64,000 nucleotides of DNA from Trichodelitschia bisporula (GCA_010356995.1 ML996688.1:1178001-1242000); one strand, 5' to 3'. Numbered from the stretch's first letter, positions 9,133 through 31,142 are shown. Notes: generated by a model not told the origin, from the sequence alone. Made by a program: numbers and translations.

Positions 9133-9882
9133 ATGATGGCAGTGTATCCCAAAACACAGCCCTACACGCCCTACCACGACACTACGGACGAGGAAGCCTC
9201 CGTCCACGGCGAAGACGCCGCCTTCCTCGAGAAGCCCGGGAATGGGAAGAAGGCACTGCCGCCGAGTCGTGTTGTCCGCGTTGCGCGCACTGTTTTCTCT
9301 CTCGCTACGCTCACTTGCTTCCTGAGCGCTGTGACCGCCGCTACGGTCCTCACGCTCTTCATCCAAAGCCAGCACCACTGGGGCATCGCGACGTCCATGC
9401 TTCAATTCCGCAACCCCGCCGCCAACGACTTGGCCAGCTACACTGCTTTGCAGAGCTACCACTGCGGGAGCACACCCGCCGAAGCGCGGGCCCTGGGATG
9501 CGTATTCGACGTCATGAGCTTCGCATGGACGCCGCCCGCATGCTACGACCAGTCCGTCTCCGCCGCCGTGATCGAGGCGCAGGGCCCGTGGGTGTTCTAC
9601 CTAGACCACAACGCCACGCAACCGATCCCCGATAGCTTGGAGGCGCTGAGCAGCGAGGTAGTCGTGTGGACGGAGCATAGTTATCACGTTGCGCATTGTC
9701 TTTACGCGTGGGAGCGGATTCACCGGGCGTATTTGAGTGTTGAGAAGCTGTTGCCGGCGGAGGTGGGGAATGTGAATCATACGCTGCATTGTGTGGGGCT
9801 TTTGAATGGGGAGCAGAGTGAGAAGAAGACGGTTAATGCGATTGCGTATATGGTGTTTGATTCTTGTGTGGATTTGAATTAG
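9133..9882 (+). CDS. UstYa/DUF3328-like oxidase A (single exon, type II membrane anchor, two HxxHC motifs)
   Basis: TM segment VFSLATLTCFLSAVTAATVLTLFI, then CGSTPAEARALGCVFDVMSFAWTPPAC, and HVAHC and HTLHC. First ATG at 9133; the ORF track start at 9094 is GTG. Confidence 0.75.
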   Translation: MMAVYPKTQPYTPYHDTTDEEASVHGEDAAFLEKPGNGKKALPPSRVVRVARTVFSLATLTCFLSAVTAATVLTLFIQSQHHWGIATSMLQFRNPAANDLASYTALQSYHCGSTPAEARALGCVFDVMSFAWTPPACYDQSVSAAVIEAQGPWVFYLDHNATQPIPDSLEALSSEVVVWTEHSYHVAHCLYAWERIHRAYLSVEKLLPAEVGNVNHTLHCVGLLNGEQSEKKTVNAIAYMVFDSCVDLN

Positions 9883-11724
9883 GGGGGTGGGGAAGGGGAG
9901 GATGGGAGGATAGATTGGAACTGGGATTTGAACGGAGCAGACAGACTATCATGAATGAATACGAGCATAATGAACCGAGAAGCGTATCGGCGACGTCTTT
10001 CACGCTCATAGAAGCAAAAGCTTCTTTCCTCATCCTCCTTCAAAGTGCACAACCGTCCTCACAGCCGCCCTGCCTCCCGCAGCCCTCCATCCCAGCACCC
10101 AGCTCTCCTCCACTCCCCCACCCCCCCCCCCAAAACCAACCCGTCAAACGTTCCACAACATCATAGCAACCACGTTATCCCCCAAGCCATCCAGCCGTGT
10201 CACGTTACATCGCAGCCCACCCGCCATACGTACATCCATCGACAAGGCCGTTGAGGAATCGAACCCCGGCCATCGCCCACGTTACACAACATATGCCGTG
10301 CGCGCCCCCATCGCAACGACGTTGCACTCAGGCACCGGTGACCCGCGGGGAAGACTCGCCCGATGATCGGCAGTAACATCCGCACGGGTATCAGCGCGAT
10401 GAAGCGCGGCGTCGGTAAGGCTAAAGCTTTTTTGTTGCTTCTTTGTTAAGGCGTGCCGGCGAGCACGGATGATGTTTGATCGCGGCTCTCCCGCAGCCAC
10501 CCGTGCGCCTCTCTGGCCCGTCCCGGGCCGGGCGGGAAGAAATGGCCGATGCCGATCGTCGTGTGTGGCGCCGAAGGTCTTAGCTCCGGATGAGGGGCTT
10601 CGATGGACTTCATTCCGACGTCTACTGTAACCTCACTTCAATGTTCAGCTCTCTTCACCGTTACCAGTGCAACTCGCGGACTCTCAGCCCTCCAGTCCAA
10701 GATTCCCACTCGTCCCGCTGCATCCTTCCTCCCCCATCCCGGTACTTCCCCAAACCTGCACCCCCCAGCACAGCAAGCAGACGCTAGCCACGTGTCCCGT
10801 CGAGAACCACACCTCCGAACACAGGACGCAAAGCTTGCCTTCACCCAGTCTTCCAAGTCTATCGGCGAGTAAACACCGCGCCGTTGAAAGGGCCCACCAG
10901 CAGCAAACTTGTCCCAGCTCCGGAGGCGGACGCGAATTGGTCAATTCCACATTCAAAAACACGCAAAGCTCGGCCGTTCATGCACTGCTCTGACCCCGCA
11001 TAGAAGATTACGACGAGTTGCTGCCAATGGCCCCGCTGAAAACATCCGAACGGTCAGAGCTCTCCCCGCCGCATATACGCTCCGCGGTCGTTCACCCCGC
11101 ACCTTCTTGCCTAACTACTGGGGCAGCACAACGGCCGTCCCACCGGCCAATCCCCCACCCACCGCCACAGACCATAAGCCGGCGGCGGCGTGCATATCGT
11201 GCCCACAAAGGCCGATATATCGGGCGTTGCACAGCTGCCGGGGGCCGTTGCGATCGGATTGCATTTCTTGCACCTTCTATCTGACCGTTCGAAGCCAGTA
11301 TGCGGAAGAGGTACGGGCTAAGATGTGCTATGTACATGATGGGCTCCCGCCGGCGTATGCTGTGAGCCTGTATATGCGGCCCCGCCGAGGCCCCGGAATA
11401 TCGCTCCCCGCCCACTCCGTCTGCCGCGCGTTCTGTGCCGACGACCGTGCTGGCTTGTGTCACCACACCACTGATAGTGCTAACAGCGCCATTTGCGAAT
11501 CGTTTGCTTCTCGCGAAATCCGAGAAGGATCCCATGATCTCCTCGCGACACCGTCCTCCCCCTCCCCCAGCCCACCAGCAAATGCTCCACCGTCCATCCA
11601 AACGCCAAACATGCCATCCAATTCCTGACCCAATGATCCTCCCAGAAGCCGTCCATGCATCCCCCCATCCACCCATCCGTCCGTCCGTCCCGCCCATACC
11701 CATCCCACCATGCAGTAGCCCCGC

Positions 11725-13650
11725 CTACCACCCCCCACCCCCACCAATCTCCTCCCTCAACGACCGCAGCAACAACCCCGCCGCCCGCTCCTTCCCATCC
11801 CTCCCAGCAGCTCCAATCAACTTCTCCGCCCATCGCTCCAAGCCGCCAACAACGCCCTTCCCGCGCTCCATCTCGGCGCGCACCACCGCCTCCAGCACAC
11901 CCCCGCAACTCTCTTCCCCCTCAACCTCAAACTCGCCAATCGCAACCCCGACCCTCCTCCCCTCCCCGGGCTCGGTCGGTGAACTGGGCGCACTGCTCGT
12001 CACACTCCCCGCCGAGCCCGCCAGTGCCGCGCCACGCCCCCGCAGGGTCATGTAGCACGAAAACACCTGCTGCACGATAAGCACGCAGGCGAGGAACAAG
12101 CTCGGACTGCTCGCGACCCCGCTGAGACATGCCGGGCACGCGAGGTAGCTGCTAACCGTCAACAGCCCGCGCCGCGCAACCAGAAGCGCGCTGTCCAGCG
12201 GTGATCCCGCGCCCCGCAGGCTGTGCAGCTCGGCAATGATGTGCAGCGACAGCGGGTCGCACAGGCAGCTCGGCTGCTGCTGATGCTGGTGCTGCGGGGG
12301 AGCCGCGAGGGTGGTGGGCGGTGAGGCGTGCGGTGGCGCTTGGGCTAGGACAAGCATATTGCTGCCCGTGAATAGCCGCGGTGATACGGCATCGTCGGGT
12401 GCGAGGGGGCCGTGCAAGGTGTCGTCCAGCATGGGAGGCGCGGCGATGGCCGTGGGTGTTCCGGTGAGATAGGACTCCGACTGCGTGAACCAGCCGAAGT
12501 CGTCGATGTCCAGGCCTAGATCTGCGGAGGGGGGGTAGTCGAGTTTGCGGGCGTCGTTGCTAGGCGCTGGGGAGGGGGAGGGTGGGCCAGCGTGTTGATT
12601 GGGGGGCGGATAGTACGGGGGGAGGAGGGGCTCGGCGGGGAGAAGTTCCGAAGAATCGCGCGGTGGAGGCGGCGCGTGGTACGTCGTGTTTAGGTGCAGG
12701 CCCATATCGCTGCTAGTAGGACCCGGATGGCGACTTAGCGGTCCGGTGTGAATACTCGTGGGACCACTGTGGTCGGTTGCCATACGTTTCGCCTGATGGT
12801 CAGCCTTCTCGTCGGCACGCTGCAGGACAGAGGACGCGTACCAGAGGGAGAGCGCCGTCGGAGGAGCGCTTGCGAGGACTTGTGCTGAGGTGGCGCGGGT
12901 CGAAGTGGTGATTTGAATCGGCTGGAGCTGTTAGCTACGGTGCGAGATGTGACTGACATGTCCACCATGCTTGGTGCGAGGAGAGGTCGAAGAAGCATAT
13001 GGGGGAGCATGGGACGTAGCATGTTCGATCATATGAGAGTAAAGACTCACCGGGAGCAATCGCCGTCTGCTGCTCGCTCTCCTGCGGCGTCTTCAGCCGC
13101 TTCACCTTGTTCTTGCTGCCCTTTGGCTTGCCGAGCGGCTTGCCCGTGCTGTACGTGCAAGCGCTGTTGTTGCGCTGGCAGCGTTCACAAGTTGGGCGTT
13201 CGCCGGAGCAGCGGACTTTACAGCGGTAGCACTGGCGAGGTAAGTAAGCGCAAGAAAATGGGCGTGGAGAAGATGAGGTTTGTGAAGAGGAGTGGGAGGA
13301 TATGTGACGAGACGGGAAGGGACGTGCTGGGCCGTGGTGGTTCCTGCCGTGGTAGTGATGTTGTGCCCAGCCCCATGCATCGTGAAAAACAGCGGAGCAC
13401 CGCATCACACCGCAACCACCGCCACAAGACCAACAACCGGCCCAGAAAGCAATAAAAAAGGAGGCGCCGAACTCACTTGGTCACAAGCAGTGCAAATGTG
13501 GCCGGAGGACTCCTTTCGAACATGGCCGCGGCGCTGTGTCGCCGAACCGGAGCCCGAAGCTGTTGACGAGTCGGTTGTCGAGACCGTGATGCCAGTATTA
13601 GGCGCCGAGCTGGGCCCCGAAGAGGAGCTGGCTCCGGCGGTGCCGTTCAT
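11725..13650 (-). CDS. Zn(II)2Cys6 transcription factor with AflR-like C-terminal region, 4 exons
   Basis: Splicing 13477 to 13231 gives CTACDQCYRCKVRCSGERPTCERCQRNNSACTYSTGKPLGKPKGSKNK, a complete six-Cys cluster. Two further introns join it to ORF 11725-12783 (CLCDPLSL...LDSALLVARRG...YLACPAC...VAIGEFEV). Confidence 0.85.
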
Positions 13651-16600
13651 CGTAGCTGGAGAATTCGCGGTGCGTGGTGGAAGGTGTCGTGCAGGACTCA
13701 GAGTCAAATCGCGCGGGACGACGCACGGCTTCGGAGGTTGATGTTAAGTACTCTTGCTTCTGGGTTGGGTTCCGTCGCTGGTTTTCTAGCCTCGAGACCG
13801 GGCTCTTGCTGCTTGTTAAGCTGCTTGCGCGATGCGGGGGAGGGGTGAGGCCGAGGACGGAGACGGCGTGGTGGGGTGCGGAGCTGGGAGAGTGGAGAGA
13901 GCTGGTGGGGATGGGAGGGGAGTGAGCTCTCTTGGTTGGACAACTTTTGGAGTAGCAGTTGAGGTGATGCGGTCGCCTGGTTGGGTTGTGTGGCTTGGAT
14001 AGCCAGGCTGGATGCGAGGCTAGGGGTGGGTGGATGGGGGTGGAGAGATGGGAGGGATGCGAGGAGATGGGATTGGTGAGAGAGAAGAAAGAAACAGAGG
14101 AGAGAAGAGAGAGATAGCGGGGAAGCAAAGCAGAATAATGGAGGAAGAGGAGGCGGCGGACAGGCCACCACCAAACACCAAACACCAAACAGCCACAGCT
14201 TCTTCCTCTTCCTGATCCATTTCTAACCACTCTCGTCCGCTCGCCTCCACCTTTTCCCCCGCCCAGTTCTCCCCCACTATCACGGAATTGCGAGATCGCG
14301 CATGGTCCACCGTCCAACGTGGCACTAAGGTCTTGCAGCTTGCTGCACAGGACTGATACGCCGAAGAAGGCAGTCCAGATGCACCGAAGGGAAATACCGA
14401 TATGCTTCTCCCTCGTCCCGTAAGTAGTACGAGATGCTCCCAAGGCCTTCCCACAACAGGCACATGCCCCTCTCACCACCGATCGACCGCCATCAATCGC
14501 GATGATAACCCATCAGGCTATCAAAGCCCACCCTCGGCCCTAAGCTCTAACCTATCCCCCCCCCCCCTCTCCCCCGGAGGTACGTAGAAGGAAACAATCT
14601 CACCATCTCTCCAATCCCGTTCCTCGGACCTTCTCCCGCCTCGGCGAAAGCTCCAAACCACGCACCCACCCGTCCGCGCCCGGCCCGTCCCCCAGCATCA
14701 AGCAGGCAATTAGCATAGAAGCAAGCAAAGTGGAGAACGGAGCGGAGCGCCTCGTCAGCGTGTGCCGTGGTCCGGGGACGGCGAAAGGGTGGGGGAAGCG
14801 GATGGCGTTTGGCTCAGAGGCTTCAGCTTCGGGCGCGAGCTGGTGCGGGCGCTGGCGTTGCTGGCGGGCGGGCTGTTCGGAGGGGCACGAGGTGACGGGG
14901 GAGGGGGCGCGGGAAGGGAAGGGGTGGTGAATAGCGGTGATGGGAGAATGGAGTGGTTGGAGTGGTTGAGTGGTGATGGCGTCTCGTTTGGCGTGCGCCC
15001 ATTCGCCAATTGCACGAACGCCCTTGATAGTTCTGCAGCGTGTCGCCGGATCGGGGGCCTGGATGCCTTCGGATCGCCGGTGTCCGCTCTCGCCTGGGCT
15101 CCTCCGAGTTGGCCGGTTGCGAGTTGCTGGTTGTCTCGCACGCCGGTTCGCCATGCGCTTCCACGCCGTTACCTGATGCCGTCTTTTGTGGCCTTTTGAA
15201 GATGCGTGTCATAGAGGTAAGACTCCCTCTCGTCATATCATGTCCCGAGCTCGCCACGGCTAGAACTAGTCGGTCGATCAGTCAGAAAAAGCGTTTCAAG
15301 CGAAGGGAGTATCCGCCCTTCCCGCAATGGGGGCCCGTGAATGACATGTGGAAATACGGTAGACACCACCGTTGCGTCTATCGCGGGTGATCTTAGCCTC
15401 CGTCTCAGCCAATTACTATGCATCCCCGGCGGGTGCGTATCGCGCACACGTAATACTTGACCGTGCGGCCTACGCGCGGGAGTGCCGCTCGTCTGTTGAG
15501 CGGCAGCAACGCAGATTGGCCGAAGGGAAACGCACACCCAGAGAACTCGTGATGGTACTGGCTCTGGATGCCATTCCGTTCCCGAGCACTCGTAACTGTA
15601 CCTTCAGCAATCGGACGCAAAATAGCACTCGCTCCCTTAATCGCGCGCATCCCAGTTAGTACTCTGCTCTCCTCGCTCTCCCTCGCTCTTTCACGACTCC
15701 GATCTCGCTTCCACGCCGTCTCAACCACTCATCCGCGCGCCACGGACCACCACCGCCTCCAAAATCCCCCTCCACCACCCGCTATACCGGACCCCAATTC
15801 GCAAGTCTCCTCGCTTTCCGCGTCAAGACGGCAAGATCACACATCAGAGCATATACCAAGGCAATCAATCCCGCACCCAGCAAGCGCAGCCACTCGCGCG
15901 GTACTACTGCAGGGAATTCAACTCGAAGGCCAACACACACGACAGCCATGCAGACAACCGCCATCATCCCAGCACCCGACATGTGCGGGCTGATGCGCCA
16001 TTGTCTCTGCTCGCTGCCACCCTACCGAATGCCTCGTGCATCCTGCATCCTGCCTGCTGCGTTTGATGCTGCTACGCTTGCAACTGTGGAGTGGCGTCGA
16101 GTCGCTGCCCTGTCTACCATTTACCTTCGCGTCTCTTTCTCCCGAGTTCTACCGCCGTTGCGATTCTGCGATCATATGCAGGCTGCTCGAGCCTGTGCTA
16201 GCCAGAACGAACGAAGTAGACGCGCTACAATCACTCCCACCGCGAACTACGGATGTAGATGTCGCGGTGTTTGTGAACGCTTCCCACATGTACAGTAGTT
16301 TGCGTCGTCGGAGCTCCCCGGCCCCACCCAACCCCGCATCTCCCTCAACTGAGACTCCGGTCAGCGAGGCTGAAGCGGGGTGGATGCCTCTTGCGCAAGC
16401 GCAGCCAAAGGCGCACATCCAGCCTCCAAAACCGGCCATACCGAGTTCGTAACGGAATAAGCGTACGTTCCATGGTAAGACATACCGCGCGCCCGCTCCG
16501 TACCGCTCCGGCACGACTCGTGCATTACCCCAAAGCAGCTAATTATCCGCTCTAATCGCTTGCCGCAGTGCGCTCGTACCCAGACGGATACGCGGTCAGA

Positions 16601-19288
16601 GTTTACCGCCCCAACGGGGAGGGAAGAAGCAAGGTGAGAGAGAAAATGGTGAAATGCGGTGAAAAGGCAAAATGGTAGGGAACATGGTGCGGGTTTGCGC
16701 GCGGAAGCAAGGGCCAAGCGGGGGCGGCGGCAGGCCTGCGGCTTATCTATCTTACCGCGCTCTTGCACCAAACCAGACACGCGATACAGGCCTCTCCGCT
16801 GTCTTGGGTCGTCGAAAAGCTTGCGACACCCGCCCGACCGGCTGAATGGTTGGAGGGTCGAGGGGTAGTTAGCAGGGGTGTGTTGGTCGCCAAGAGTTAG
16901 GTGCTGGGGGCGTTGAGCAGATGCGCGCCAAGGGGAAGTGGGTGAGCCATGTGAGGACGGGATAGGATGATCGAATAGAAATTCGGGTGAGATGTGCTTG
17001 GTGAGTGGGTGGGTGGGCAACCCGTGAGAAATGGAGATGCGAGGTGAATTGGTGATTCGATGTCCGAGGTACTGACAAAAAACGGCCGGTGGTTGTTCAT
17101 GCTGAAAGAAGTTGGAGGGGACGTGTGACGGATCGGCAATCTGAGATTCGATGCCTGCTGCTGAGGAAAAGTGGAGGAGGTGTGAAGAGGAATACTGGAT
17201 GTGTGCCGCTCTTTATGCCCTCATTGGACCCGAGGCGTCCGCTTGAAGGAAGAGGAGGAAGAGATCCAAAATGCCACCCACCCCGGTCGATCTGTCCGTT
17301 CGCAACCCAGGCTCGATGGCCCAGTGCCTCACCATGGAATGCTGCAAGGTGTCAGATCGGCCTGCCTTTCTTGTATCAAGCAGCTCAACCCCTGAGGGCT
17401 CGAGGACAGCACACCCTCAAGGCACCGATGGGGCGGGGGGCCGTGGGCGGCAACGCGGTGGAACCGTCGAACCGTGGGCCGGCCCGTAGGGCTTGTCGGG
17501 TTCGGCGGGCGTTCGCAAGAGATGTGATTCGCGTTACGAGCGATTGGCAGCCGCGAAGGGAGAAGAGCTGCACCCTGAGAGAAGCTGCACTTCGATGCGG
17601 CCGCAGTGGCCGCGGCCCACTCCACCAGCATTCCCCGCCATCGGAAAAGCTTTCTAGCAGGCCATCTCTGTCCGTCAGATAATTCAGCGCACAACACTCA
17701 GTCACTCACCTCAAACACACAGCCGACCGCGCCAAACGCCTTTGCCGACTCTTCCCACCGCGGCTGACAGTAGTAAACCCCATCAGAGTTAGCGACCACC
17801 CAAAACAGCCCCCCGCATCCCACCCACTCATGCCCATCTCCAGTCCCACGGCCACCCCTCCCCCTCCCCGGTACGACTAGCCCGCCGGGCCTGCCGAGTC
17901 AAGGAGACACGCGCCCGCAGTTGCACAGCCGCCCGAGACAAGCAACGATTGGTGGCCGCGGCGCCTCTCAGCAAGTCGGCCACAGACACACGGCGTTTGG
18001 GAGGCCGCTCACCGAGCAGTAGCCGAGCGCGAGCGTGATGCGCAGCGGTCATCCCTGTGACGCTGCGGCTCGTGGCCTATCGGGACCTTTCGCGACGTTC
18101 CACCAGCCCGTTTCCATTCTTCGGAACTGGCGTGGCGCCCCAAGTACAGACTGAGGAAAGCGCCGCTTCGTGGATTCATGGATAGCGGGGAGAGGGGAGG
18201 TTGAGTGGGTTGTCGTAACCGCTTTCTTGAGCATGTCTACGGATGTAGGCTTGGAGGAGGAAGATAAAAGGGAGAAGCGAGCGGGAAGCAAGCGAGAAGA
18301 AGCGATGTAATGAGGTGAGGTGCCTGTCGTATTTCTGGGGATTATTGGGGACTGGGAAGGAGCTTTGGCTTGAGCGTGATGGTGTGGGGAAGGAGGGAGA
18401 GAGTGGGGCATACGGTATTGTGTGCTTTGCCTCTCTGGTCGCTCTTACTTTCGGCACCCAAGTTGGAAGGAGAAAGGGACCTGCTAAGCCCAGATCACAA
18501 TATTTTCCTATCTGTTGGCACAACAAAGAGAAGGCGCGCCAAACCTCTTCTGCTGGAGTTGAAGTGAGACCTGAGACCTTTTACAAGATGCATCATCATT
18601 CCTTCCTTACCCCGCAAATACCGGTATCCGATCATATCATATCTCCATGACCTACTACCGAACCTACTGATGTACTACGTATATCCCGCGGTATGTTAGC
18701 AGTAACCAGTAAAACAGAAAACTAAGGACGTCGATACCGACCAGGTCCCAGTTCCCCGTTGACGAATTTCGTCTCCAGCGCCTCAGGAAAACCCAAGGGA
18801 AGGGCTCTCAGACCTCTTCGCGCCCTGGCCCTGGGAGAGTTGCTCGTCGTTTATTGGCTTCCCACCGTCCGTTTATGCAAACTCCCGCGCTTCGGGCGGA
18901 TGATTGGCGCGGCCAAACTGCAACGCACCACATTTGTGTCGCCATGCCGTTTCCTTCAATCTCACCTTTTCTCTCTCTCAACCTTTCCCACTTTCATCAT
19001 TCTCCCTTCTCTCGTCTCCCTGCTGCGTCTCTGCATATCTGCATCTCTGGCTGCATCAAACGTACGCCAACCGCCCTCCCCCCTACCCCGCTCTCTCAGT
19101 CCTCTTTTCTCCACCTTCGTCGTACCTCGAAGGAAGCGATTAACGCGAACCGCCAGTCTGGGTGAGAGATCCAGAGGGGCGACATACGGAACACACTCCA
19201 CCTGATCCTCACTGCTCTGCATATTCCACTTTCCGCTTCACCTCACCCCCCCCAAAATATCAAACCACCCTTACTCGACCATCTGCAG

Positions 19289-20362
19289 GTGCATCAACTG
19301 AACGCCTCACCACCCTCCATTCCTCAAACCCCTCCACACCCCCCTTCTTACCCTCGATGCCGTGCCTTATACTTGTCCCCTCCTTGTCCTTATCGACCGT
19401 GTAGGACGCAACTATCATCTCTCCTGGTATATTCTCCCCTTTCGTCCATCTCTCTCCCAACAGACGCAACCCCTTATCCTTCCATCACTTCCTTCCCCGC
19501 AATCGTCTTCCCCTCTCCACCAATTGTTTCCGCCATCGCTCCTTCCATACCCCCTACCCCCCTCCATTCCCCTGTCATAGATTTTGCGGCACAGCCGATG
19601 TGTAGTCCCGTATTCATCGTGTCGTCGCAGCAGAACACAGCAGAAGATTCCACGACAGCACCAACCGAATCCGCGCCGACGTCTTATCCCTACTGGGAAT
19701 CACCGCAACAGCTGTGGCCGCAGTGGCCTCTGCACTACTTTGGTACTCCGTACGCCCCCGAATCCGCTCAAGGACGCATATGCACCATAGCTCCTCGCAT
19801 GAGCGGATGCACCTGCTTCGCCTCCGCGTTGCAGGTCTCTGAGCAGCTCCACCGCACAGAGGCCGCCCTTGCCTCAACTGCCTTCGACCATGTCCTCAAT
19901 GTTGCCCGTCACGCCAGTGCCGTGTGCCGTCAGTACGCCGCCTGTCCGCTGTGCGCCGACCCTTCCTACTTCCCGCTCTACGTCATCATTCTGCGCAAGG
20001 CTGCCGCCTGTTACTCGCACCTGATCCAGGCGGCCTCTCCCGCCGGCGCCTCTCCCGGCACCGCGTCCACGGCCTCGGGCGTATCCGCCTCTTCGTCTGG
20101 CCAGGGAGCCCACACCAGCCGGGTCCGCATCGGCGCCTTTGAGGTTGATGCTCCGCTCGACGATCACACACGCGCGCTGATTCTGCGGACCGAGGTTCGT
20201 CGCGCGGCTGAGGCGGCCTGTGCGTTGGAGACGGTTCTGGGGCCTGGAAGTCCGAAGGCGGCGGCGCACCGCGACGAGACGGCGTTGATGTATCAGCGTG
20301 GACTCGTGGGAGCACTGCGGGAAGAGATTGGAGCGCTGGAAGGGGTGTTGCAGTCAATATGA
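19289..20362 (+). CDS. AflR-like C-terminal domain protein, putative regulator; true start uncertain (first in-frame ATG at 19598)
   Basis: CTCFASALQ...FDHVLNVARHASAVCRQYAACPLC...RVRIGAFEVD parallels the C-terminus of the neighbouring Zn2Cys6 factor. I found no Zn2Cys6 exon upstream. Confidence 0.65.
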   Translation: MHQLNASPPSIPQTPPHPPSYPRCRALYLSPPCPYRPCRTQLSSLLVYSPLSSISLPTDATPYPSITSFPAIVFPSPPIVSAIAPSIPPTPLHSPVIDFAAQPMCSPVFIVSSQQNTAEDSTTAPTESAPTSYPYWESPQQLWPQWPLHYFGTPYAPESAQGRICTIAPRMSGCTCFASALQVSEQLHRTEAALASTAFDHVLNVARHASAVCRQYAACPLCADPSYFPLYVIILRKAAACYSHLIQAASPAGASPGTASTASGVSASSSGQGAHTSRVRIGAFEVDAPLDDHTRALILRTEVRRAAEAACALETVLGPGSPKAAAHRDETALMYQRGLVGALREEIGALEGVLQSI

Positions 20363-21101: not shown

Positions 21102-22086
21102 TTAGGGCGGCACAAAGTGCATTTCCTTGCCGCCAAACTGCCACGCATCGTTGTCCCGCGCCCCTTCGAGCCAGCTATACATCTGGTCGAAATTCTTGCA
21201 CACGTGCGGCACACCCAACTGTGAGCTTCCTCCGGGCAGATCCTCGCCGGCCAGCGCCATGTCACCTCCGCAGAGGAGCACCTGTCGCACGTAGTCAATG
21301 CAGTGATCCATATGCTCGGTGGAGTGGCCCGGTGGGGCGAGCTGGAGAGCGAGAAGGTCATATTCCGACATTATTTCGTACTAACGAGAGAATGTTAGCA
21401 GAGAGAGAAGTGGGGGGTTGCACCTGTGGAGGGGTAAAGTGGGACTTTGTTGTTGAGAGAGAAGGGGCAGGTGAGGTGGTTCGGGAAGGGATTCTCACCA
21501 GACAGTGTAGGGCGTGCATCATTGACGTCCCAAGACTCTTGCCACCATTGTACACCACCGGCTTGGGAAGCTTATACTTCGCAATATCGTCCTCCGTCAC
21601 CGCAACGTAGCCTTGTCCCGCTATCGACCCATCAGAAGCACATCGCACCGTCGGACACCATGACTTACGTGGCAACAGACCCATCCAGGCATCACGAGCC
21701 TCTCGCAAGCTCGCCTCGCTGGTGTGATTCGAAACGAACTGCGGATGCGAACTGAACACCACCGTCTCCGTCGAGAAATTTGGCACAAAGCCCGTTACAT
21801 CGTCCATCAGTCCTGGTGCTTCGTGCAGCGTCGGTCGTTGTTGTCGAATGACCACAAGGACTAGCACGGCTAGCAGTGCTGCATCGAGGAGGAATAGCCA
21901 TGGCGAGCGGGTGCGGGAGCAGCGTCGTCGGCGTGTCCGCTTTTCGTTGTGCGTGGGCAACATGGGCGAGGTATCCTCTTCCTCTTCAGCTATGGTAGAG
22001 GTGGACGACCCGCTGATGGACGGCCAAGGCACTTCTTCCATCAGGGCCGTCTTCTCGTACGTGCTTAGGTCAACTGAGGGAGGCAT
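21102..22086 (-). CDS. UstYa/DUF3328 oxidase C (canonical), 3 exons: 22086-21669, 21620-21499, 21380-21102
   Basis: TM LFLLDAALLAVLVLVVI; W.GLLPPGQGYV; SMMHALHCL; HMDHCIDYVRQVLLCGGDMAL; HVCKNFDQ. These are the hallmark DUF3328 motifs. Introns are GTAAGT...ATAG and GTGAGA...TTAG with a CTAAC branch site. Confidence 0.9.
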
Positions 22087-22945
22087 GGGTAGGATGAGCG
22101 ACTGGGTAGCGTCTGCGAGGTGGAGGCGGGCGGCGAGGAGGGAGAATGGGCGTGTACGAGGGGGACGGGGCATCAGGTTTGGGGATGGGGAGGGTGGATG
22201 GAGTGGATGGGGTCTGGTCAGGAGTGAGTCTCTTCGTGTGTGAGTAGCATTATGTTCGTAACCCCTCCCTTGACTGATGGCGACTGACCTCCGAAGCAGG
22301 CCATCGTGATCTCCACTTACACCGTCGGGAGCAGGCATACTTCGGACGCGAACACGCTGGCGCCGAAATATCATGCTGTACAACCGAATCTTGTGCGACA
22401 TCCGGGCTTGTCTCCGTACCGACCTCCGGCCTTAGCCTCGTTCCGACATATCCACGGCTCCGCGCGCTAATGCACGGCGGATGAAAACGCAATATGCAGG
22501 TTTCTGCAGCTGCTCTCCACAACCTGCTACTCCACATTTTGCTACTCGGCGCGTTGGGCACTGGAGATGCATCGTTCTCCACTACGTACTATCCAGTACC
22601 TACTCTGTACTGCGAACTCCGCCATAGCGTTACTCCGCACAAACCACCTCCAAAGCGCATGACGCCGTTCCTGTCCGCAGTGCGCCATTCGCTCTCCGCC
22701 AAATTGCCATTCGGCAGTCATAGGCCCTTCGATCTAACCTCCCATGTATCATACACCCCAGACCGGTCACCAGCGCCCTTATAAGCCTTGGTCACGCCAC
22801 GATCCAGGGCACAGCAGCAGTGACAGACAGGCAGCCTCGCACAAGACCCGATTTTTCTCATTCTTCAACGGCTTGGAATCCGTTTTGCCCGGTGCAGCTA
22901 CTTACTTTTTGATCGAATCTTTCCGACCTTTACCCCCTGTTCATC

Positions 22946-24002
22946 ATGAAGTTCACCAACGTTGCGGCCCTTGCGGCGCTCCTGACTGGTGCCACGGCTC
23001 TGCCGGTTGCTGAGGGTCAGTTTTTCTGAGATCGTGCTTAGTTACGGGAAGCTGACAAGTCTAGCTGATCCTATCTTCGCTCGCGTCGATAAGCGCGATC
23101 CCATCTTTGCCCGCGTCGATAAGCGCGACCCCATCTTCGCGCGTGTCGACAAGCGCGATCCCATCTTCGCGCGTGTCGATAAGCGCGAGGCTGAACCGAT
23201 CTTCGCTCGTGTCGACAAGCGCGAGGCCGAGGCCGAGCCCATCTTCGCCCGTGTCGACAAGCGCGACCCTATCTTCGCCCGCGTTGACAAGCGCGACCCG
23301 ATCTTCGCCCGCGTTGACAAGCGCGACCCGATCTTCGCCCGTGTTGACAAGCGCGAGGCTGAGCCGATCTTTGCTCGCGTCGACAAGCGCGACCCCATCT
23401 TCGCCCGTGTGGACAAGCGGGAAGCCGACCCCATCTTCGCCCGCGTTGACAAGCGCGAGGCTGAGCCGATNNNNNNNNNNCGCGTCGACAAGCGCGACCC
23501 CATCTTCGCCCGTGTGGACAAGCGGGAAGCCGACCCCATCTTCGCCCGCGTTGACAAGCGCGAGGCTGAGCCGATCTTCGCCCGCGTCGACAAGCGCGAC
23601 CCCATCTTCGCCCGTGTGGACAAGCGGGAAGCCGACCCCATCTTCGCCCGCGTTGACAAGCGGGAAGCCGACCCTATCTTTGCCCGCGTTGACAAGCGTG
23701 AGGCCGACCCCATCTTCGCTCGCGTCGATAAGCGCGAGGCCGACCCCATCTTTGCCCGTGTGGACAAGCGCGAGGCTGAGCCTATCTTTGCCCGCGTCGA
23801 CAAGCGCGAGGCCGACCCCATCTTCGCTCGTGTTGACAAGCGCGACCCCATCTTTGCCCGTGTGGACAAGCGCGAGGCTGAGCCGATCTTTGCCCGCGTC
23901 GACAAGCGCGAGGCCGACCCCATCTTCGCTCGCGTTGACAAGCGCGACCCCATCTTCGCTCGCGTGGACAAGCGCGACCCCATCTTCGCGCGCGTGGACT
24001 AA
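22946..24002 (+). CDS. Secreted Kex2-processed repeat protein; putative RiPP precursor with repeated core IFARVD. Exons 22946-23015 and 23065-24002
   Basis: Exon 1 is MKFTNVAALAALLTGATALPVAE (signal peptide). A 49-nt intron (GTCAGT...GCTGAC...CTAG) follows, then A-DPIFARVDKR and repeats of (EA)0-2[DE]PIFARVDKR ending DPIFARVD-stop. 27 complete units plus one interrupted by a 10-N gap. Confidence 0.93.
23067..23999 (+). repeat. Coding tandem array of 30/36/42-nt units
   Basis: Units vary at synonymous positions and in the number of EA dipeptides. Assembly gap at 23471-23480. Confidence 0.95.
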
Positions 24003-24809: not shown

Positions 24810-25586
24810 TCAGTTACACGACGGAAAATCGACATGCAAGCGCGTGGTAACCATCTCCAGCGGCACACTCGTATTCATAAAAACCCTCGAACACAGCTCC
24901 GTATGCTCAATACTCGCCAGATTCGCATCCATCCGCCACCCCCTCTGCCAAGCGCGATGCATCGCCTTCCAGCCGTACACACAGTGCGTCACGAAATACC
25001 GGCGCGTCGTCCAGCTCACGACCCCGGCTTCGGAAATCTCCTCCTCGGTCATCCGGCGCCCGCTGGGGTCCGGGGAGCTGTAGAATTCCCACGGCCCTTC
25101 GAGCATGAAGGACTCGTGCAGGTCGGCGTCGAAACATTCCTGCGCTTGCCACGCCATGCTCATGACGTCGAAGACGCAGCCTGCGGCGCGGGCGGAGGTG
25201 GCGGTTAGGCCGCAGGGGTGTTTGAAGGAGCGCTGGGCGCGAGGAGAGGGTTTGAGACTATTGACCTTGGCGCCGATTTGGCCGAGGAGGTCGACGGTGT
25301 GGAAGGTTAGGCCGAAGATGAGGCCGATGGTTGTGAGGAAGGTAAGGATGCCGAGGATTTTGATGCCGAAGACGACGCGTCGGGTGCGGGAGCTGCGGCG
25401 CGGGAGGGGGAGCTCCATGTCCATGTCTTCTTCGTCGGAGGGTTCTTTGCGGTGGAGGGGGGTGTAGGAGGGGGGGTTTGAGGGACTGGAGTCGGAAGAA
25501 GATTTGGAGGCCATGAGAGGGGTGTATGAGGGGCTTGAGAAGGTGGTCTTGGGGCGGAGGAAGGAGGGGAGTGTGAGGGTGGGCAT
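24810..25586 (-). CDS. UstYa/DUF3328-like protein B (single exon), paralog of A with degenerate HxxHC motifs
   Basis: TM IKILGILTFLTTIGLIFGLTF; CGLTATSARAAGCVFDVMSMAWQAQEC aligns with A; GPWEFY. The motif positions read FVTHC and HTELC. Confidence 0.7.
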   Translation of the reverse strand: MPTLTLPSFLRPKTTFSSPSYTPLMASKSSSDSSPSNPPSYTPLHRKEPSDEEDMDMELPLPRRSSRTRRVVFGIKILGILTFLTTIGLIFGLTFHTVDLLGQIGAKVNSLKPSPRAQRSFKHPCGLTATSARAAGCVFDVMSMAWQAQECFDADLHESFMLEGPWEFYSSPDPSGRRMTEEEISEAGVVSWTTRRYFVTHCVYGWKAMHRAWQRGWRMDANLASIEHTELCSRVFMNTSVPLEMVTTRLHVDFPSCN

Positions 25587-26412
25587 ATGTGCGGTTGCTC
25601 GGGGGGGTTTATGGGTCTGTTGTCATGGTGGGGGATACATATCTTTCGCCTCTATCTTTGCTCTGCTCCGCTCTGCTCCGCAGGATACGACTGCTCCTCG
25701 CGCGGATATCTCGGTGCTTGCAATATGCAGTACATGGCGCCCGGCCGTCAGCCGTGAAGCGCGAGATAGGAAGCATGAAGGAAGACGTATGGTGCAAATA
25801 TCGGCCTTGGCTGGGCTTCAACCGCCGGAATTCGATGCCAGCGCGTAGGGCCGGATGGTGAACTAGTGTGGGGTGTGGGATGGGAGCAGATTGGATGTTG
25901 TGGAGTGCTTTGCGGCGGCCCGTTGGGCGGGGCGGGAGGGGCGGGAAGGGCAAAGTTCCGGAGTTATGTGGCGCTACTCGTATTTGGTGGGGTGGGAGTG
26001 GGGGCGCGTTACCCGTAAGTGGGAGGTGGACGACAATTGCTCCGGAAATTCAGACCGCGAGTAGATTTGCATTCCCTTGCATCGCTAACGTCGTCGGGGG
26101 ATGCACGACGATATGCCCGTCCTTTTGGCGGATTGGATGATGATTGTGCGCTTGGCGGAGGTGCAGGCGATGTCGGGTTGGAGGCCGGGATGAGGTCGGG
26201 ATGATGGACATGGAAGGTTTTTTTTCGTGAGAGCTGCTCTTCTCTCTTGCTCCTCGAAGCTTTCTCCTTTCTGCTTCTTTGTCCTACAATCAAGGCTGAC
26301 GTGCTAGTTACAGTCCCTTTCAACCCACTTTACGCGCTCTCTACCCGTGATGCTCATTCCTCAGTCCCCACCATAGCCAACCTCTAGAGCGCAACCGGCT
26401 CCCATAGCGGCC

Positions 26413-28144
26413 ATGGCCCAAGCCTTCCGCTTTCCCCGCAGTCCCAAATCCCCCACTATCGTCCGCTCATCCTCTTGGAAAAGCCAGAGTCATGAACTCA
26501 GCAGTCCCTCCAGCTCGAGCAGCCCATTACCTACAATCGACGAGGAGCCGCGCCTCAGTGCTCTCCGCCTCATCGTCTTGACATGTAGCGTAGGCGGGTT
26601 CGTACCTCGTCCCTAGCTTCCGCTCCTCAGCTCACATTAGCAGTCTTCAACTCGTCTGGGCAACTATCATGTCCAATGGCACGGCACGTGCTCTCCTCCT
26701 CTCCATCTTTCCCCTGTATCATTATACTTTAGCTAACCCTACCAGCCCTTCCTCCTAACCCTCGGCCTCCCGGACTCCCTCACAGCATTCGTTTGGGTCG
26801 CCGCCCCCCTCTGCGGCGTCCTAGTCCAGCCCTCCGTCGGCATCCTCAGCGACGCATGCCAGCTGCGCTGGGGCCGGAGACGGCCATTCATCGCCGCCGG
26901 TGCCGCGGGCGTTGTAGTTAGCATGCTGGGACTGGCAAGCACACGCACCGTACTGCATACCGTACTCGGCGCTATGGGCGCCAACATCCACGGTGGTGGA
27001 GTGCGGACGGTTGTAATCCTGAGTGCGGTAGGGTGGTTGTGGCTGCTCAACTTCTTCATCCAGCCCCTGCAAGCCGGGATCCGCGCGCTGATCGTCGAGA
27101 ACTGTCCCGCGGCACAGCAGACACAGGCGTCCGCATGGGCGAGCCGTGTCACGGGGGTTGGGAACGTGGTCGGTTACTTTTTCGGGTATGTGCCTGTGGA
27201 CACGGTGTGGCCCGGCTTGGGCGTGAGCCAGTTTACGTGGTTGAGTCTTGTGGCGGCCGTGTGTCTTACCACCACGGTGGTAGTGACGTGCTTGTGTGTC
27301 CGGGAGCGGGATCCCAGGGAGCTTCCGCTGCCGCCGGGGGGTGGGAAGTCTCCGAGGGAGATGTGGAGGTATATTGTGTGGAGTGCGCGGACGATGCCAA
27401 GTGAGGTGAGGAGGGTGTGTATGGTGCAGTTTTTTGCGTGGATGGGGTGGTTTCCTTATTTGTTTTACATCACGAGGTAAGCCGGCCGATATCGGCATTG
27501 CACAAGTCGCTAACGCGCGCAGCTACATCGGCGACCTGTATGCCGCCCCCATCCTCGCTCGCCAGCCGCACATGTCCTCCACCAAACTGGCGGCCGTGAT
27601 AGAAGATGCAGTCCGGCTCGGCAGCCTCGGCAGTCTGATTTTCAGCCTCGTGGCCCTGGGCACTAACATCCTGCTCCCACGTCTCGTCTCCGACAAACCA
27701 GGCGCGCGACTATCTTTACCACGTGCCTGGGCCCTGTCCCACGCCATCTTCTCCCTCTGCATGTTCAGCACCCTACTAGTACACACCCGCCTCGGCGCAA
27801 CCCTCGTCGCCGCCGTCGTGGGCGTAGCCTGGGCCACCACGCTCTGGGTCCCCTTCAGCATCATCGGGTCCGCGATAGCAGAGCGACAAGCCCGAGGCGC
27901 CGCGGTGCTGCGTGACGGACAGCTCGGCCTTGAGCCGGCGGCGCAGGAGCAAGCGGGCGCGATCATGGGGCTGCACAACTGTGCGATTTCGGCGCCGCAG
28001 ATACTCGCCGCGCTGGTGAGTGGGGCTATCTTTTGGGCGGCGCCGAAGGTGGGGAGTGCGGATGGGATTGGGTGGGTGTTGAGGGGGGCGGGCGGGGCGG
28101 GACTGGTGGCAGCGTGGTTGGCTTGGGGGATGGATGAGAGTTGA
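26413..28144 (+). CDS. MFS/GPH sucrose-H+ symporter-like (SUT1/SLC45 family) transporter, multi-exon
   Basis: VWVAAPLCGVLVQPSVGILSD...WGRRRPFI, QAGIRALIVE, VQFFAWMGWFPYLFYIT, AGAIMGLHNCAISAPQI. Confidence 0.85.
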
Positions 28145-31055: not shown

Positions 31056-31142
31056 ACTTTTGGGTGCCAGTATATGGTTGATGGGGTGATGGATGGGTTT
31101 AGGTAAAATGTTTCGCGGTGCCTGTATTTTGCTGTATGTTGC

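What the first reader, a model, noticed from the sequence alone, without database searches (positions are those of the whole stretch)
9133..28144. Candidate dikaritin-type fungal RiPP gene cluster with an IFARVD core
Seen in sequence: a signal-peptide, KR-delimited repeat precursor; three HxxHC/DUF3328-type genes; two AflR-like regulators; and a transporter. All lie within 19 kb with no recognisable housekeeping gene among them. Established: a repeat precursor plus UstYa/DUF3328 genes defines dikaritin clusters (ustiloxin, phomopsin, asperipin-2a, victorin). Inference: this cluster makes an oxidatively modified, possibly macrocyclic peptide. Its core matches none of the cores I know (YAIG, YVIPID, FYYTGY, GLKLAF), so the product may be undescribed.
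Basis: partly seen in the sequence, partly recalled or inferred. Interest (0 to 1): 0.92.

Follow-up and report, generated by a model that had tools for sequence, protein, structure and literature searches.

The report
Conserved fungal peptide cluster, IFARVD core
A dung fungus carries an expressed gene cluster, also present in a related fungus, that encodes 28 copies of the peptide IFARVD beside copper-oxidase-like enzymes, so it probably makes an undescribed modified peptide of the ustiloxin/victorin kind.

Summary
At 22946-24002 (+) a spliced gene encodes a signal-like leader and 28 KR-delimited units with an invariant PIFARVD core. Of these, 27 are intact and one is cut by a 10-N gap.

The core is under strong selection. 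42 copies in two organisms occur in 33 DNA versions, and every difference is synonymous.

- One canonical UstYa/DUF3328 gene is present (PF11807, 68.8 bits).
- Two paralogues belong to a family with no Pfam assignment. They carry an HxxHC...HxxHC signature and are only remotely UstYa-like. One of them lacks two of the four histidines in both organisms.
- One regulator is a true Zn2Cys6 protein. The second "regulator" is a paralogue of it without a DNA-binding domain.
- The transporter is an MFS_2 protein.

RNA contigs show that all seven genes are transcribed and spliced. A metagenome contig carries the same six genes in the same order, with the identical core.

Best reading: a UstYa-type (dikaritin-like) RiPP cluster of Trichodelitschia bisporula that makes an oxidised IFARVD hexapeptide. 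No product was observed. The kind is known; the core and the second enzyme family look new.

The parts
9093..9882 (+). Gene A. A 246-aa single-pass membrane protein (P0001) with a lumenal domain carrying HVAHC...HTLHC. It belongs to a family with no Pfam assignment (the 'A/F family'). The CDS is 9093 joined to 9143-9882, and the intron 9094-9142 splits the ATG.
   Evidence: - RNA joint 9093>9143; sequence read.
- P0001 is 100% identical and has no Pfam domain.
- Alignment A1 shows invariant Cys and His positions.
- AF2 model: mean pLDDT 79.7, with both motifs on neighbouring helices.
11725..13650 (-). Cluster regulator (TF1), about 500 aa. It has a Zn2Cys6 binuclear cluster and a weakly AflR-like C-terminal region. 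Introns: 12793-12841, 12922-13050, 13232-13476.
   Evidence: - PF00172 at 26.1 bits; PF08493 only 14.3 bits.
- RNA joints, canonical splice ends, spliced translation.
- 42% identical orthologue in L003.
13651..19156 (.). Spacer that is not conserved in the orthologous locus. No ORF here has a Pfam match. It carries low-depth spliced transcripts with introns of both polarities, part of which join to gene C as 5' exons.
   Evidence: - 0 Pfam hits.
- No tblastn match to L003, where the same interval is about 2.1 kb.
- RNA joints 17665>17710 (- polarity) and 17787>17844, 18689>18744, 19061>19157 (+ polarity).
19799..20362 (+). Gene C, 187 aa from its first in-frame ATG after splicing. It is a paralogue of TF1's C-terminal region and has no DNA-binding domain. 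Upstream spliced exons (17844-19426) carry no Zn cluster.
   Evidence: - 28% identity to the TF1 C-terminus, E 2e-7.
- PF08493 at 20.2 bits, below the cut-off of 24.
- No Zn2Cys6 pattern in any frame.
- 64% identical in L003 and 34% in L019.
21102..22173 (-). Gene D, a canonical UstYa/DUF3328 oxidase of 301 aa (P0039). It has a membrane anchor and the motifs HALHC...HMDHC. Introns: 21381-21498 and 21621-21668.
   Evidence: - PF11807 at 68.8 bits, covering 2-218 of 220 model positions.
- Named 'Oxidase ustYa' by UniRef and assigned to Trichodelitschia bisporula by NCBI.
- RNA joints.
- AF2 model.
22946..24002 (+). Precursor gene E. It encodes a signal-like leader, then 28 units of (X-Ala/X-Pro dipeptides)-IFARVD-KR. 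Intron 23016-23064. A 10-N gap lies at 23471-23480.
   Evidence: - Sequence, repeat arrays and translation.
- RNA joint.
- 27 intact units in 22 DNA versions, all differences synonymous.
- Orthologue in L003 with the same intron phase.
24810..25586 (-). Gene F, 258 aa, an A/F-family paralogue. One histidine of each HxxHC is replaced (FVTHC, HTELC). No intron.
   Evidence: - 33% identity to A.
- The same degenerate motifs occur in the L003 orthologue.
- A continuous RNA contig covers 24759-25901.
- Tree placement.
26413..28144 (+). Gene G, an MFS_2-type transporter of 525 aa, head-to-head with F. Introns: 26598-26643, 26684-26745 (GC-AG) and 27477-27522.
   Evidence: - PF13347 at 28.5 bits; protein-atlas neighbours are MFS_2 clusters.
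- RNA joints.
- The same head-to-head pairing with an F-clade gene is seen in L015 and L038.
28853..31055 (+). Copper amine oxidase gene directly downstream. Its membership of the cluster is not supported.
   Evidence: - Pfam N2, N3 and catalytic domains.
- No copper amine oxidase match in any of the 38 related loci. L003 ends before this position.

Best explanation
This is a UstYa-type (dikaritin-like) ribosomal peptide cluster of the dothideomycete Trichodelitschia bisporula.

**Proposed pathway**
1. The precursor enters the secretory pathway through its N-terminal signal sequence.
2. It consists only of core, KR and X-Ala/X-Pro dipeptides. A Kex2-type protease cuts after each KR, a Ste13-type dipeptidyl aminopeptidase removes the spacer dipeptides, and a Kex1-type carboxypeptidase removes KR.
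3. This yields up to 28 copies of the hexapeptide IFARVD per precursor molecule.
4. Before or after cleavage, membrane-anchored lumenal oxidases modify unactivated C-H bonds of the core by hydroxylation, desaturation and/or a side-chain cross-link. The likeliest targets are Phe2 and the branched residues Ile1 and Val5. The oxidases are the canonical DUF3328 enzyme D and the remotely related protein A. F may act as a half-site partner.
5. The Zn2Cys6 protein drives expression. Gene C, which lacks a DNA-binding domain, modulates it. The MFS_2 transporter moves the product or an intermediate.

**Shown:** gene content, splicing, transcription, conservation of order, and purifying selection on the core.

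**Inferred:** every processing and chemical step, and the roles of A, F, C and G.
For: **Precursor anatomy**
- The spacers are DP, EADP, EAEP and EAEAEP, and the leader ends LP-VA-EA-DP after a signal-like A-T-A.

**Selection on the core**
- 27 units in the window and 15 in L003 make 42 copies in 33 DNA versions.
- The polymorphic sites are 6 of 21 in the window and 8 of 21 in L003. All are synonymous and there is no residue change.
- By contrast, 47 of 63 possible single-base changes to the unit would alter a residue.

**Enzymes**
- D is a full-length PF11807 protein at 68.8 bits.
- DUF3328 enzymes are membrane-anchored, lumenal, dimeric binuclear-copper oxygenases that use HxxHC(x)nHxxHC (PMC12435403, abstract and passages).
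- A carries both motifs. It aligns to a UstYa profile across both (hhalign 62.5%, E 7.3e-5; cross-HMM scores up to 24.5 bits).
- A's model has the same strand-helix(HxxHC)-loop-helix(HxxHC)-strand layout as the model of D.

**Orthologous cluster in L003**
- Same six genes, same order and orientation. Enzymes are 42-64% identical while the core is identical, and the precursor intron has the same phase.

**Recurrence of the A/F family**
- A/F genes lie next to PF11807-like genes in 8 of 26 distinct metagenome locus groups.
- They lie next to other tandem-repeat peptide genes in 5 of 26 groups.
- About 228 kb were examined in all. A survey gives about 5.3 Kex2-repeat genes per ascomycete strain (PMC7329392, passage). 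My rough estimate, assuming genomes of tens of Mb, is well under one such gene expected by chance.

**Transcription**
- Spliced RNA contigs cover all seven genes in both runs of one sample.
Against: - No metabolite has been seen.
- The core has no Tyr, the residue cross-linked in ustiloxin, phomopsin and asperipin-2a. No tyrosinase, methyltransferase or P450 was found among the scanned ORFs.
- The spacers are exactly those of alpha-factor-type unmodified peptides.
- A and F fail PF11807. The profile match to UstYa is only moderate and rests on 54 columns around the motifs.
- F lacks two of the four histidines, and all of them were essential in CctR.
- The RNA data are assembled contigs of one sample, so they cannot show co-regulation.
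- Conservation of the transporter in L003 could not be checked. The locus ends 685 bp after F, and the rest of the contig could not be fetched.
- No shared promoter 8-mer was found.
Confidence: 0.72

Rival explanations
1. The precursor is an ordinary Kex2-processed repeat protein. It releases a linear, unmodified IFARVD signal peptide of the pheromone or hormone kind, and the neighbouring oxidase-like genes act on something else.
For: - Apart from the presumed signal sequence, every non-core residue is KR or an X-Ala/X-Pro dipeptide. This is the alpha-factor processing grammar (Kex2/Ste13/Kex1 roles recalled; STE13 dipeptides in fungal repeat proteins are mentioned in PMC7329392).
- 78% of surveyed Kex2-repeat proteins have no DUF3328 neighbour.
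- The core has no Tyr.
Against: - The precursor lies between D and F in both organisms.
- Five different repeat precursors sit beside A/F-family genes.
- Precursors annotated as pheromones almost never have DUF3328 neighbours: 3 exceptions in the survey.
- There is no MF_alpha Pfam match.
- A 6-residue peptide differs from the known ascomycete alpha-pheromones, which are longer and Trp-containing (recalled).
Confidence: 0.13
2. The cluster is real but decaying or silent for product formation in this fungus. F is a dead enzyme and gene C is a truncated regulator remnant.
For: - F lacks two copper-ligand histidines.
- C has no DNA-binding domain.
- A 5.5-kb non-conserved spacer interrupts the cluster.
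Against: - Both features are conserved in L003. F is 56% identical with the same substitutions, and C is 64% identical.
- All reading frames are intact and all genes are transcribed and spliced.
- Every one of the 27 readable core copies is intact.
Confidence: 0.08
3. The repeat protein is a structural secreted or cell-wall protein that is not cut into peptides.
For: Tandem-repeat secreted proteins are common in fungi (general knowledge). No proteolysis has been shown here.
Against: - A dibasic KR follows every unit.
- The spacers vary in length (DP to EAEAEP) while the heptapeptide never varies across 42 copies. This is the pattern expected if the released peptide, not the polymer, is selected.
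Confidence: 0.03

Closest known systems
Asperipin-2a cluster of Aspergillus flavus (aprA precursor, aprY DUF3328 oxidase, aprT transporter, aprR reductase)
   Same: - A small cluster built from a Kex2-repeat precursor with a hexapeptide core, a DUF3328 oxidase and a transporter.
- No tyrosinase or methyltransferase (PMC6514808, passages).
   Different: - The asperipin core FYYTGY is cross-linked through Tyr side chains; IFARVD has no Tyr.
- This cluster adds two A/F-family proteins, a Zn2Cys6 regulator and a paralogue of it without a DNA-binding domain.
- It has no reductase.
Ustiloxin and phomopsin clusters (UstA/UstYa/UstYb/UstQ; PhomA/PhomYa-e/PhomQ/PhomM)
   Same: - Signal peptide, KR-delimited multi-core precursor, UstYa-family oxidase(s), zinc-finger regulator and transporter (PMC6514808; PMC12048977).
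   Different: - Those cores (YAIG, YVIPID) start with Tyr and need a tyrosinase. Neither feature is present here.
- The UstA flanks need proteases that are still unknown. Here every flank is KR or an X-Ala/X-Pro dipeptide.
Victorin cluster of Cochliobolus victoriae (core GLKLAF)
   Same: - A dothideomycete, a Tyr-less hexapeptide core with Phe, and DUF3328-dependent chemistry.
- Victorin is cyclised between the Phe side chain and an internal Leu (PMC9233826, passage).
- A copper amine oxidase (VicK) acts in that pathway (recalled from the abstract of Kessler et al. 2020; the paper was not held). One lies next to this cluster.
   Different: - The core is different, and there is no evidence for chlorination.
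- The amine oxidase here is not seen in any related locus, and the N-terminus would be Ile, not Gly.
- No sequence comparison with the Vic proteins was possible.
DUF3328 copper oxygenases (CctR; also ApnU and AprY)
   Same: - N-terminal disordered tail, one transmembrane helix and a lumenal domain.
- HxxHC(x)nHxxHC on two adjacent helices, plus conserved Cys (PMC12435403).
- D and A both show this layout in AF2 models.
   Different: - A and F do not match PF11807.
- They carry an extra conserved N-terminal module (CGSTPxEARxxGCxFDxxxxAWxPxxC) that is absent from the UstYa consensus.
- F keeps only one His per motif.
Yeast alpha-factor and other Kex2-processed repeat proteins
   Same: KR sites followed by Glu-Ala or Asp-Pro type dipeptides, with many identical copies per precursor (PMC7329392).
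   Different: - Alpha-factor-type precursors are not accompanied by DUF3328 genes.
- There is no MF_alpha Pfam match.

Membership tests
Dikaritin / UstYa-type fungal RiPP cluster | [quoted passage not shown] | tested here: met
   28 KR-delimited units follow a hydrophobic leader. The signal peptide is judged from the sequence only; no predictor was run.
Dikaritin / UstYa-type fungal RiPP cluster | A DUF3328/UstYa protein with two HxxHC motifs beside the precursor. This is the class-defining enzyme in the definition quoted in PMC12048977. | tested here: met
   Gene D / P0039 scores 68.8 bits on PF11807 against a cut-off of 25. It has HALHC and HMDHC and starts 773 bp from the precursor start, divergently oriented.
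Dikaritin / UstYa-type fungal RiPP cluster | Tyrosinase and methyltransferase genes (the older five-gene definition quoted in PMC12048977) | tested here: not met
   Neither gave a Pfam hit among the 29 ORFs or the 120 ORFs, which cover 9.9-36.5 kb. Later definitions no longer require them.
Dikaritin / UstYa-type fungal RiPP cluster | Transporter and zinc-finger regulator in the cluster | tested here: met
   MFS_2 at 28.5 bits and Zn_clus at 26.1 bits.
Dikaritin / UstYa-type fungal RiPP cluster | Product with an oxidative side-chain cross-link | not testable with these tools
   No chemistry is available. The core lacks Tyr. In the survey, about a third of DUF3328-linked repeat sequences (34.4%) also lack Tyr.
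Pfam PF11807 (UstYa / DUF3328), asked for genes A and F | Score at or above the gathering threshold of 25 bits | tested here: not met
   A and F give no PF11807 hit at E <= 10. 6 of 31 family members give weak hits, the best at E 0.0056.
DUF3328 superfamily in the wide sense, asked for genes A and F | HxxHC(x)nHxxHC on two adjacent helices of a lumenal domain behind one transmembrane helix | tested here: inconclusive
   - A has both motifs, on helices 179-198 and 211-222.
- hhalign to UstYa gives 62.5% probability and E 7.3e-5.
- The atlas' first named neighbour is a UstYa cluster at rank 18, score 0.85.
- F has FxxHC and HxxLC.
- Copper binding was not tested.
AflR family (PF08493), asked for both regulator genes | Score at or above the gathering threshold of 24 bits, plus a Zn2Cys6 domain | tested here: not met
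   TF1 scores 14.3 bits and gene C 19.8-20.2 bits. Only TF1 has a Zn2Cys6 cluster.
Alpha-factor-type mating pheromone precursor | MF_alpha Pfam domains or similarity to known ascomycete pheromones, and no DUF3328 neighbour | tested here: not met
   No MF_alpha match at E <= 1. A DUF3328 gene is directly adjacent.

The most novel reading that the evidence does not exclude
The A/F proteins are a second branch of the binuclear-copper DUF3328 superfamily that Pfam does not recognise. This branch marks, on its own, a hidden set of fungal ribosomal-peptide clusters that DUF3328-based genome mining misses. Two of the five repeat precursors found beside A/F genes (cores DIESVD and N[V/L]TLR) have no canonical UstYa gene in the sequence available, and DIESVD has no aromatic residue. 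Within the IFARVD cluster, F is a conserved half-site member that works as a heterodimer partner of A or D rather than as an enzyme in its own right.
Probability: 0.35. Interest if true: 0.75.

Novelty: new variant of a known kind. Interest (0 to 1): 0.6.

Why it matters
UstYa-type peptides include tubulin poisons (ustiloxins, phomopsins) and a host-selective plant toxin (victorin), yet only a handful of the predicted clusters have a known product. This one is a clean candidate for three reasons.
- It is small.
- It is transcribed in a sample for which RNA data exist.
- It is conserved with an identical core in a second organism, and its precursor can be processed entirely by general secretory proteases.

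It also points to a family of HxxHC proteins that Pfam does not capture and that recurs beside repeat-peptide genes. If these are copper oxygenases like DUF3328, searches keyed on PF11807 undercount fungal ribosomal peptide clusters. The conserved member lacking two histidines would then offer a natural test of how the two-copper site works.

Tried and rejected
- **Precursor homologues in the 5.8-billion-protein collection.** Two searches timed out. A search restricted to the first four units found no protein of 185-592 aa at E <= 1e-3, not even the window's own. The gene therefore seems to be uncalled, or called in a shorter form. This is no evidence that the core is rare.
- **Whole genome.** Not held. 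The rest of the L003 contig could not be reached, so conservation of the transporter and the amine oxidase is untested.
- **Sequencing runs.** No listed holder is on record as RNA. Two runs labelled 'RNA?' proved to be RNA by their spliced contigs. Contig depths were not used to rank genes.
- **Solved-structure searches with the model of A.** Foldseek gave 0 matches at E <= 1e-3. The wide VIA-align search gave nothing at Z >= 5, and its top rows covered only the transmembrane helix.
- **Shared promoter words.** No 8-mer is present in at least 3 window and at least 3 L003 cluster promoters, and the AflR-type TCGN5CGA motif is not enriched.
- **Further repeat precursors in the larger loci.** A KR-spacing heuristic and a reading of the L038 ORFs found none.
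- **A-F heterodimer prediction.** The queue was full each time and it never ran.
- **Victorin paper.** PMC7533671 is not held, and a second paper did not mention the amine oxidase. The VicK parallel is therefore recalled.
- **Earlier findings of this scan.** Nothing relevant.

Full report
**What is in the sequence**

Positions 23067-23977 hold tandem arrays of period 30, 36, 42 and 102. Read on the + strand, with the intron 23016-23064 removed, the gene 22946-24002 encodes MKFTNVAALAALLTGATALPVAEA followed by 28 units, each ending in KR except the last, which ends at the stop.

The units break down as follows:
- 11 are DPIFARVDKR.
- 8 are EADPIFARVDKR.
- 5 are EAEPIFARVDKR.
- 1 is EAEAEPIFARVDKR.
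- 1 is attached to the leader.
- 1 is the terminal DPIFARVD.
- 1 is interrupted by a 10-N gap at 23471-23480, so the copy number is a minimum.

Everything outside the core is KR or an X-Ala/X-Pro dipeptide. This includes the stretch LP-VA-EA-DP that would follow signal-peptide cleavage after A-T-A. The signal peptide is read from the sequence; no predictor was run.

From established knowledge of yeast alpha-factor maturation (recalled), Kex2 cuts after KR, Ste13 removes X-Ala/X-Pro dipeptides and Kex1 trims the C-terminal basic residues.

**More than chance**

- The 27 intact PIFARVD units occur in 22 different DNA versions. All 6 polymorphic sites are third codon positions and all are synonymous.
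- With the 15 units of the orthologous locus L003 there are 42 copies in 33 DNA versions and no amino-acid change.
- 47 of 63 possible single-base changes to the unit would alter a residue.
- The spacers vary in length; the heptapeptide does not. So selection acts on the released peptide.

**Gene models and organism**

Two runs of one sample, labelled 'RNA?', are RNA. Their contigs carry 15 joints that the DNA run lacks. 14 of these have GT..AG ends on one strand or the other, and one is GC..AG.

With these introns the genes are:

| Gene | Coordinates | Strand | Product |
|---|---|---|---|
| A | 9093 + 9143-9882 | + | 246 aa; the ATG is split by the intron |
| TF1 | 11725-13650 | - | about 500 aa |
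| C | conserved part 19799-20362 | + | 187 aa |
| D | 21102-22173 | - | 301 aa |
| E (precursor) | 22946-24002 | + | 335 aa with the gap |
| F | 24810-25586 | - | 258 aa |
| G | 26413-28144 | + | 525 aa |

The database proteins P0001 (A) and P0039 (D) agree with them. NCBI labels P0039 as a hypothetical protein of Trichodelitschia bisporula and UniRef names it 'Oxidase ustYa'. Both proteins lie on the same 1.9-Mb contig.

All seven genes are covered by RNA contigs. This shows transcription in one sample, not co-regulation, and contig depth cannot rank genes.

**Family assignments**

- **D** is a full-length UstYa/DUF3328 protein: PF11807 at 68.8 bits against a cut-off of 25, covering model positions 2-218 of 220, with HALHC and HMDHC.
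- **A and F** are paralogues (33% identity, E 1e-23) with no Pfam match, even at E <= 10.
- **TF1** has a Zn2Cys6 cluster (26.1 bits) that an intron splits. Its AflR match is 14.3 bits, well below the cut-off of 24.
- **C** matches the AflR model at 19.8-20.2 bits, also below the cut-off. It is a paralogue of TF1's C-terminal region (28% identity, E 2e-7). It has no Zn cluster in any frame, here or in L003.
- **G** is an MFS_2 transporter.
- No tyrosinase, methyltransferase, P450 or peptidase was found between A and G.
- The 5.5 kb between TF1 and C has no Pfam match and no counterpart in L003.

**The A/F family**

A search with A found 38 relatives at E <= 1e-3. None has a precomputed Pfam domain. 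The named ones are from Verruconis, Tothia, Venturia and Aaosphaeria, all Dothideomycetes.

The alignment of 31 members shows:
- a cytosolic tail, one transmembrane helix and a lumenal domain;
- an invariant CG...A....C.FD.....W....C module;
- Y-H-x-x-H-C and H-T-x-H-C motifs;
- a conserved N-A-T sequon.

Evidence on the relation to UstYa:
- Scanned one by one, 6 of 31 members touch PF11807 weakly, the best at E 0.0056.
- A UstYa alignment was built from 46 of the best 150 relatives of D listed by the representative search, which counted 913 at E <= 1e-3. Against it, hhalign gives 62.5% probability and E 7.3e-5 over 54 columns that put both HxxHC motifs in register.
- Cross-searches with the two HMMs give up to 20.5 and 24.5 bits.
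- Some metagenome members score 17-27 bits on the UstYa model as well.
- The AF2 model of A (mean pLDDT 79.7, above 90 over most of 110-246) places the motifs three and two residues into helices 179-198 and 211-222, with a strand before and strands after.
- The model of D has the same local order: strand 195-199, helices 201-220 and 230-247, strand 267-271.
- This is the arrangement described for the copper enzyme CctR (PMC12435403, abstract and passages).
- The protein atlas lists 17 unnamed ascomycete clusters before the first named one, a cluster in which 28% of members carry UstYa, at score 0.85. That is a lead only.
- No solved structure resembles the lumenal domain.

I read A/F as a distant branch of the DUF3328 superfamily, with moderate confidence. 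It does not pass Pfam membership.

**F is special**

Among 49 A/F sequences from the loci and the window, every sequence in which the position could be read has HxxHC at the first motif and HxxHC at the second. The only exceptions are F of the window and its L003 orthologue, which both have FxxHC and HxxLC.

In CctR every His and Cys of the motif was essential, and the enzyme works as a disulfide-linked dimer. A conserved half-site paralogue therefore suggests a partner or regulatory subunit. This is inference. The complex prediction that might have tested it never got into the queue.

**The same cluster elsewhere**

A metagenome scan with the A alignment returned 38 loci, which fall into 26 groups at 95% DNA identity.

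L003 (a 20.9-kb stretch of contig Ga0335072_10000603) compares with the window as follows:

| Gene | Position in L003 | Strand | Identity to the window |
|---|---|---|---|
| A | 10001-10853 | + | 49% |
| TF1 | 13163-11688 | - | 42% |
| C | 15314-15889 | + | 64% |
| D | 17264-16313 | - | 48% and 74% in two pieces |
| Precursor | 17959-18498 | + | 15 PIFARVD units |
| F | 20168-19455 | - | 56% |

- The order and orientation are the same as in the window.
- Its precursor has the leader MKFANVAVIASLVAAVTALPVAE and an intron in the same codon phase.
- The upstream flank is syntenic too: a mitochondrial carrier at 69% and ribosomal protein S10 at 66% identity.
- The phosphorylase gene of window 32.2-33.6 kb lies outside the cluster in L003. 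This puts the right border of the window's cluster before 32.2 kb.
- L003 ends 685 bp after F, so the transporter and the amine oxidase could not be compared.

**Recurrence of the module**

- A/F genes lie beside UstYa-type ORFs in 8 of 26 groups: L003, L005/7, L010, L011, L013/14, L021/22, L024/25 and L038.
- They lie beside tandem-repeat peptide genes in 5 of 26 groups: L003; L005/7 with nine AGFPEWIKKR units; L013 with DDTYYYLR-type units; L015/19 with DIESVDKR; and L026 with N[V/L]TLR(R).
- Only 15 groups have a member of 5 kb or more, and about 228 kb were examined in all.
- No control set of random fungal loci was available. The comparison with a published density of about 5.3 Kex2-repeat genes per ascomycete strain (PMC7329392, passage) is a rough estimate.
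- In a 49-row tree, A sits in a 16-row clade (support 95/97). F and its orthologue (100/98) are sister to the L015 and L038 copies (99/95).
- These are exactly the members that sit head-to-head with an MFS_2 transporter: window, L015 and L038, which is 3 of 3 with flank available. This supports G as a cluster member.
- The window holds a second MFS_2 paralogue at 47.5-49.5 kb that is about as similar to the L015 and L038 transporters. Orthology of G is therefore not settled.
- L015 and L019 overlap. Together they read transporter, F-like gene, DIESVD precursor, C-like gene. This is the window's order without D, and with C in the other orientation.

**Comparison with what is known**

- By the current definition quoted in PMC12048977 (passages), a DUF3328 protein with two HxxHC motifs beside a signal-peptide, Kex2-repeat precursor defines a dikaritin-type cluster. 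Both features are met.
- The older five-gene definition (tyrosinase, methyltransferase) is not met.
- The closest characterised layout is the four-gene asperipin-2a cluster (PMC6514808, passages).
- The closest chemistry precedent for a Tyr-less core is victorin, which is cyclised through a Phe side chain (PMC9233826, passage).
- A copper amine oxidase lies directly after G (28853-31055). One acts in victorin maturation (recalled; the paper was not held).
- None of the 38 related loci has such a gene, and the N-terminus here would be Ile. I do not count it as a cluster member.

**Novelty searches**

- 'IFARVD' occurs in 0 of about 8.4 million full texts.
- It occurs in none of the 3 held supplement files of the Kex2-repeat survey.
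- The 21 papers naming Trichodelitschia are, by their titles and abstract openings, on taxonomy, ecology or genome surveys; none is on ribosomal peptides (listing only).
- Searches for 'HXXHC' and for UstYa with sequence similarity networks turned up no description of an A/F-like family.
- Supplements of bioRxiv preprints and papers in subscription journals were not visible. These include the Nagano 2016 and Kessler & Chooi 2022 surveys, which could list this core or family.

**Verdict**

This is a UstYa-type ribosomal peptide cluster, expressed, conserved with an identical core in a second organism, and without a known product.

It is one of many predicted clusters of a known kind, so the interest is moderate rather than very high. 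Four features lift it above the ordinary:
- the precursor, which general secretory proteases can process completely;
- the second HxxHC family, which Pfam does not recognise and which recurs beside repeat precursors;
- the conserved half-site member F;
- the regulator paralogue without a DNA-binding domain.

Noticed in passing
window 9093/9143-9144: The start codon of gene A is assembled by splicing. The A at 9093 is the last base of exon 1 and TG opens exon 2 after the 49-nt intron 9094-9142. The unspliced ATGs at 9133 and 9136 lie inside the intron.
   Followed up: yes
window 23471-23480: A 10-N assembly gap lies inside the repeat array, so the number of IFARVD units (28) is a minimum. No protein of 185-592 aa matching the repeats is in the 5.8-billion-protein collection, so the gene may be uncalled in the public annotation.
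   Followed up: partly
window 13651-19156: A 5.5-kb stretch between the regulator and gene C. It has no Pfam match and no counterpart in the orthologous locus. It is covered by low-depth RNA contigs whose introns have opposite polarities (17666-17709 on -, 17788-17843 on +).
   Followed up: partly
window 26684-26745: One intron of the transporter has GC..AG ends instead of GT..AG. It is supported by RNA contigs of both runs.
   Followed up: no
window 47506-49506 (-): A second MFS_2-type transporter paralogue. It is about as similar to the transporters of loci L015 and L038 (39-49% identity) as the cluster's own transporter is.
   Followed up: no
window 45785-46644 and 44000-48000: An 860-N assembly gap inside a block of lower G+C (0.41-0.47, against 0.52-0.63 in the other 2-kb windows).
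   Followed up: no
window 35467-36774 (+): A subtilisin-like protease (Inhibitor_I9 plus Peptidase_S8) lies about 7 kb beyond the transporter. It is separated from the cluster by genes that sit outside the cluster in L003. A subtilase (KexB) belongs to the epichloecyclin cluster (PMC10540207), but nothing links this one to the IFARVD genes.
   Followed up: partly
window 32235-33587 (+) versus L003 6871-7924: The PNP_UDP_1 phosphorylase gene lies downstream of the cluster in the window. In L003 it lies inverted and upstream, between the mitochondrial carrier and ribosomal S10 genes. The two organisms therefore differ by a rearrangement around the cluster.
   Followed up: partly
L005 4580-5005 (= L007 11897-12322); L013 6656-7102 (-); L019 1292-1546 (-); L026 1-291 (-): Four other tandem-repeat peptide genes lie beside A/F-family genes in metagenome contigs:
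- nine AGFPEWIKKR units behind a signal-like leader;
- DDTYYYLR-type units;
- nine DIESVDK(K)R units;
- N[V/L]TLR(R) units, cut by the contig end.
   Followed up: partly
L024 / L025, 900-10500: Three A/F-family paralogues and a UstYa-type gene lie within 10 kb. No repeat precursor was detected by the simple word-count and KR-spacing screens.
   Followed up: partly
window 31055-31228: A short simple-sequence repeat just after the copper amine oxidase gene. It reads LYDLYD... in one frame.
   Followed up: no
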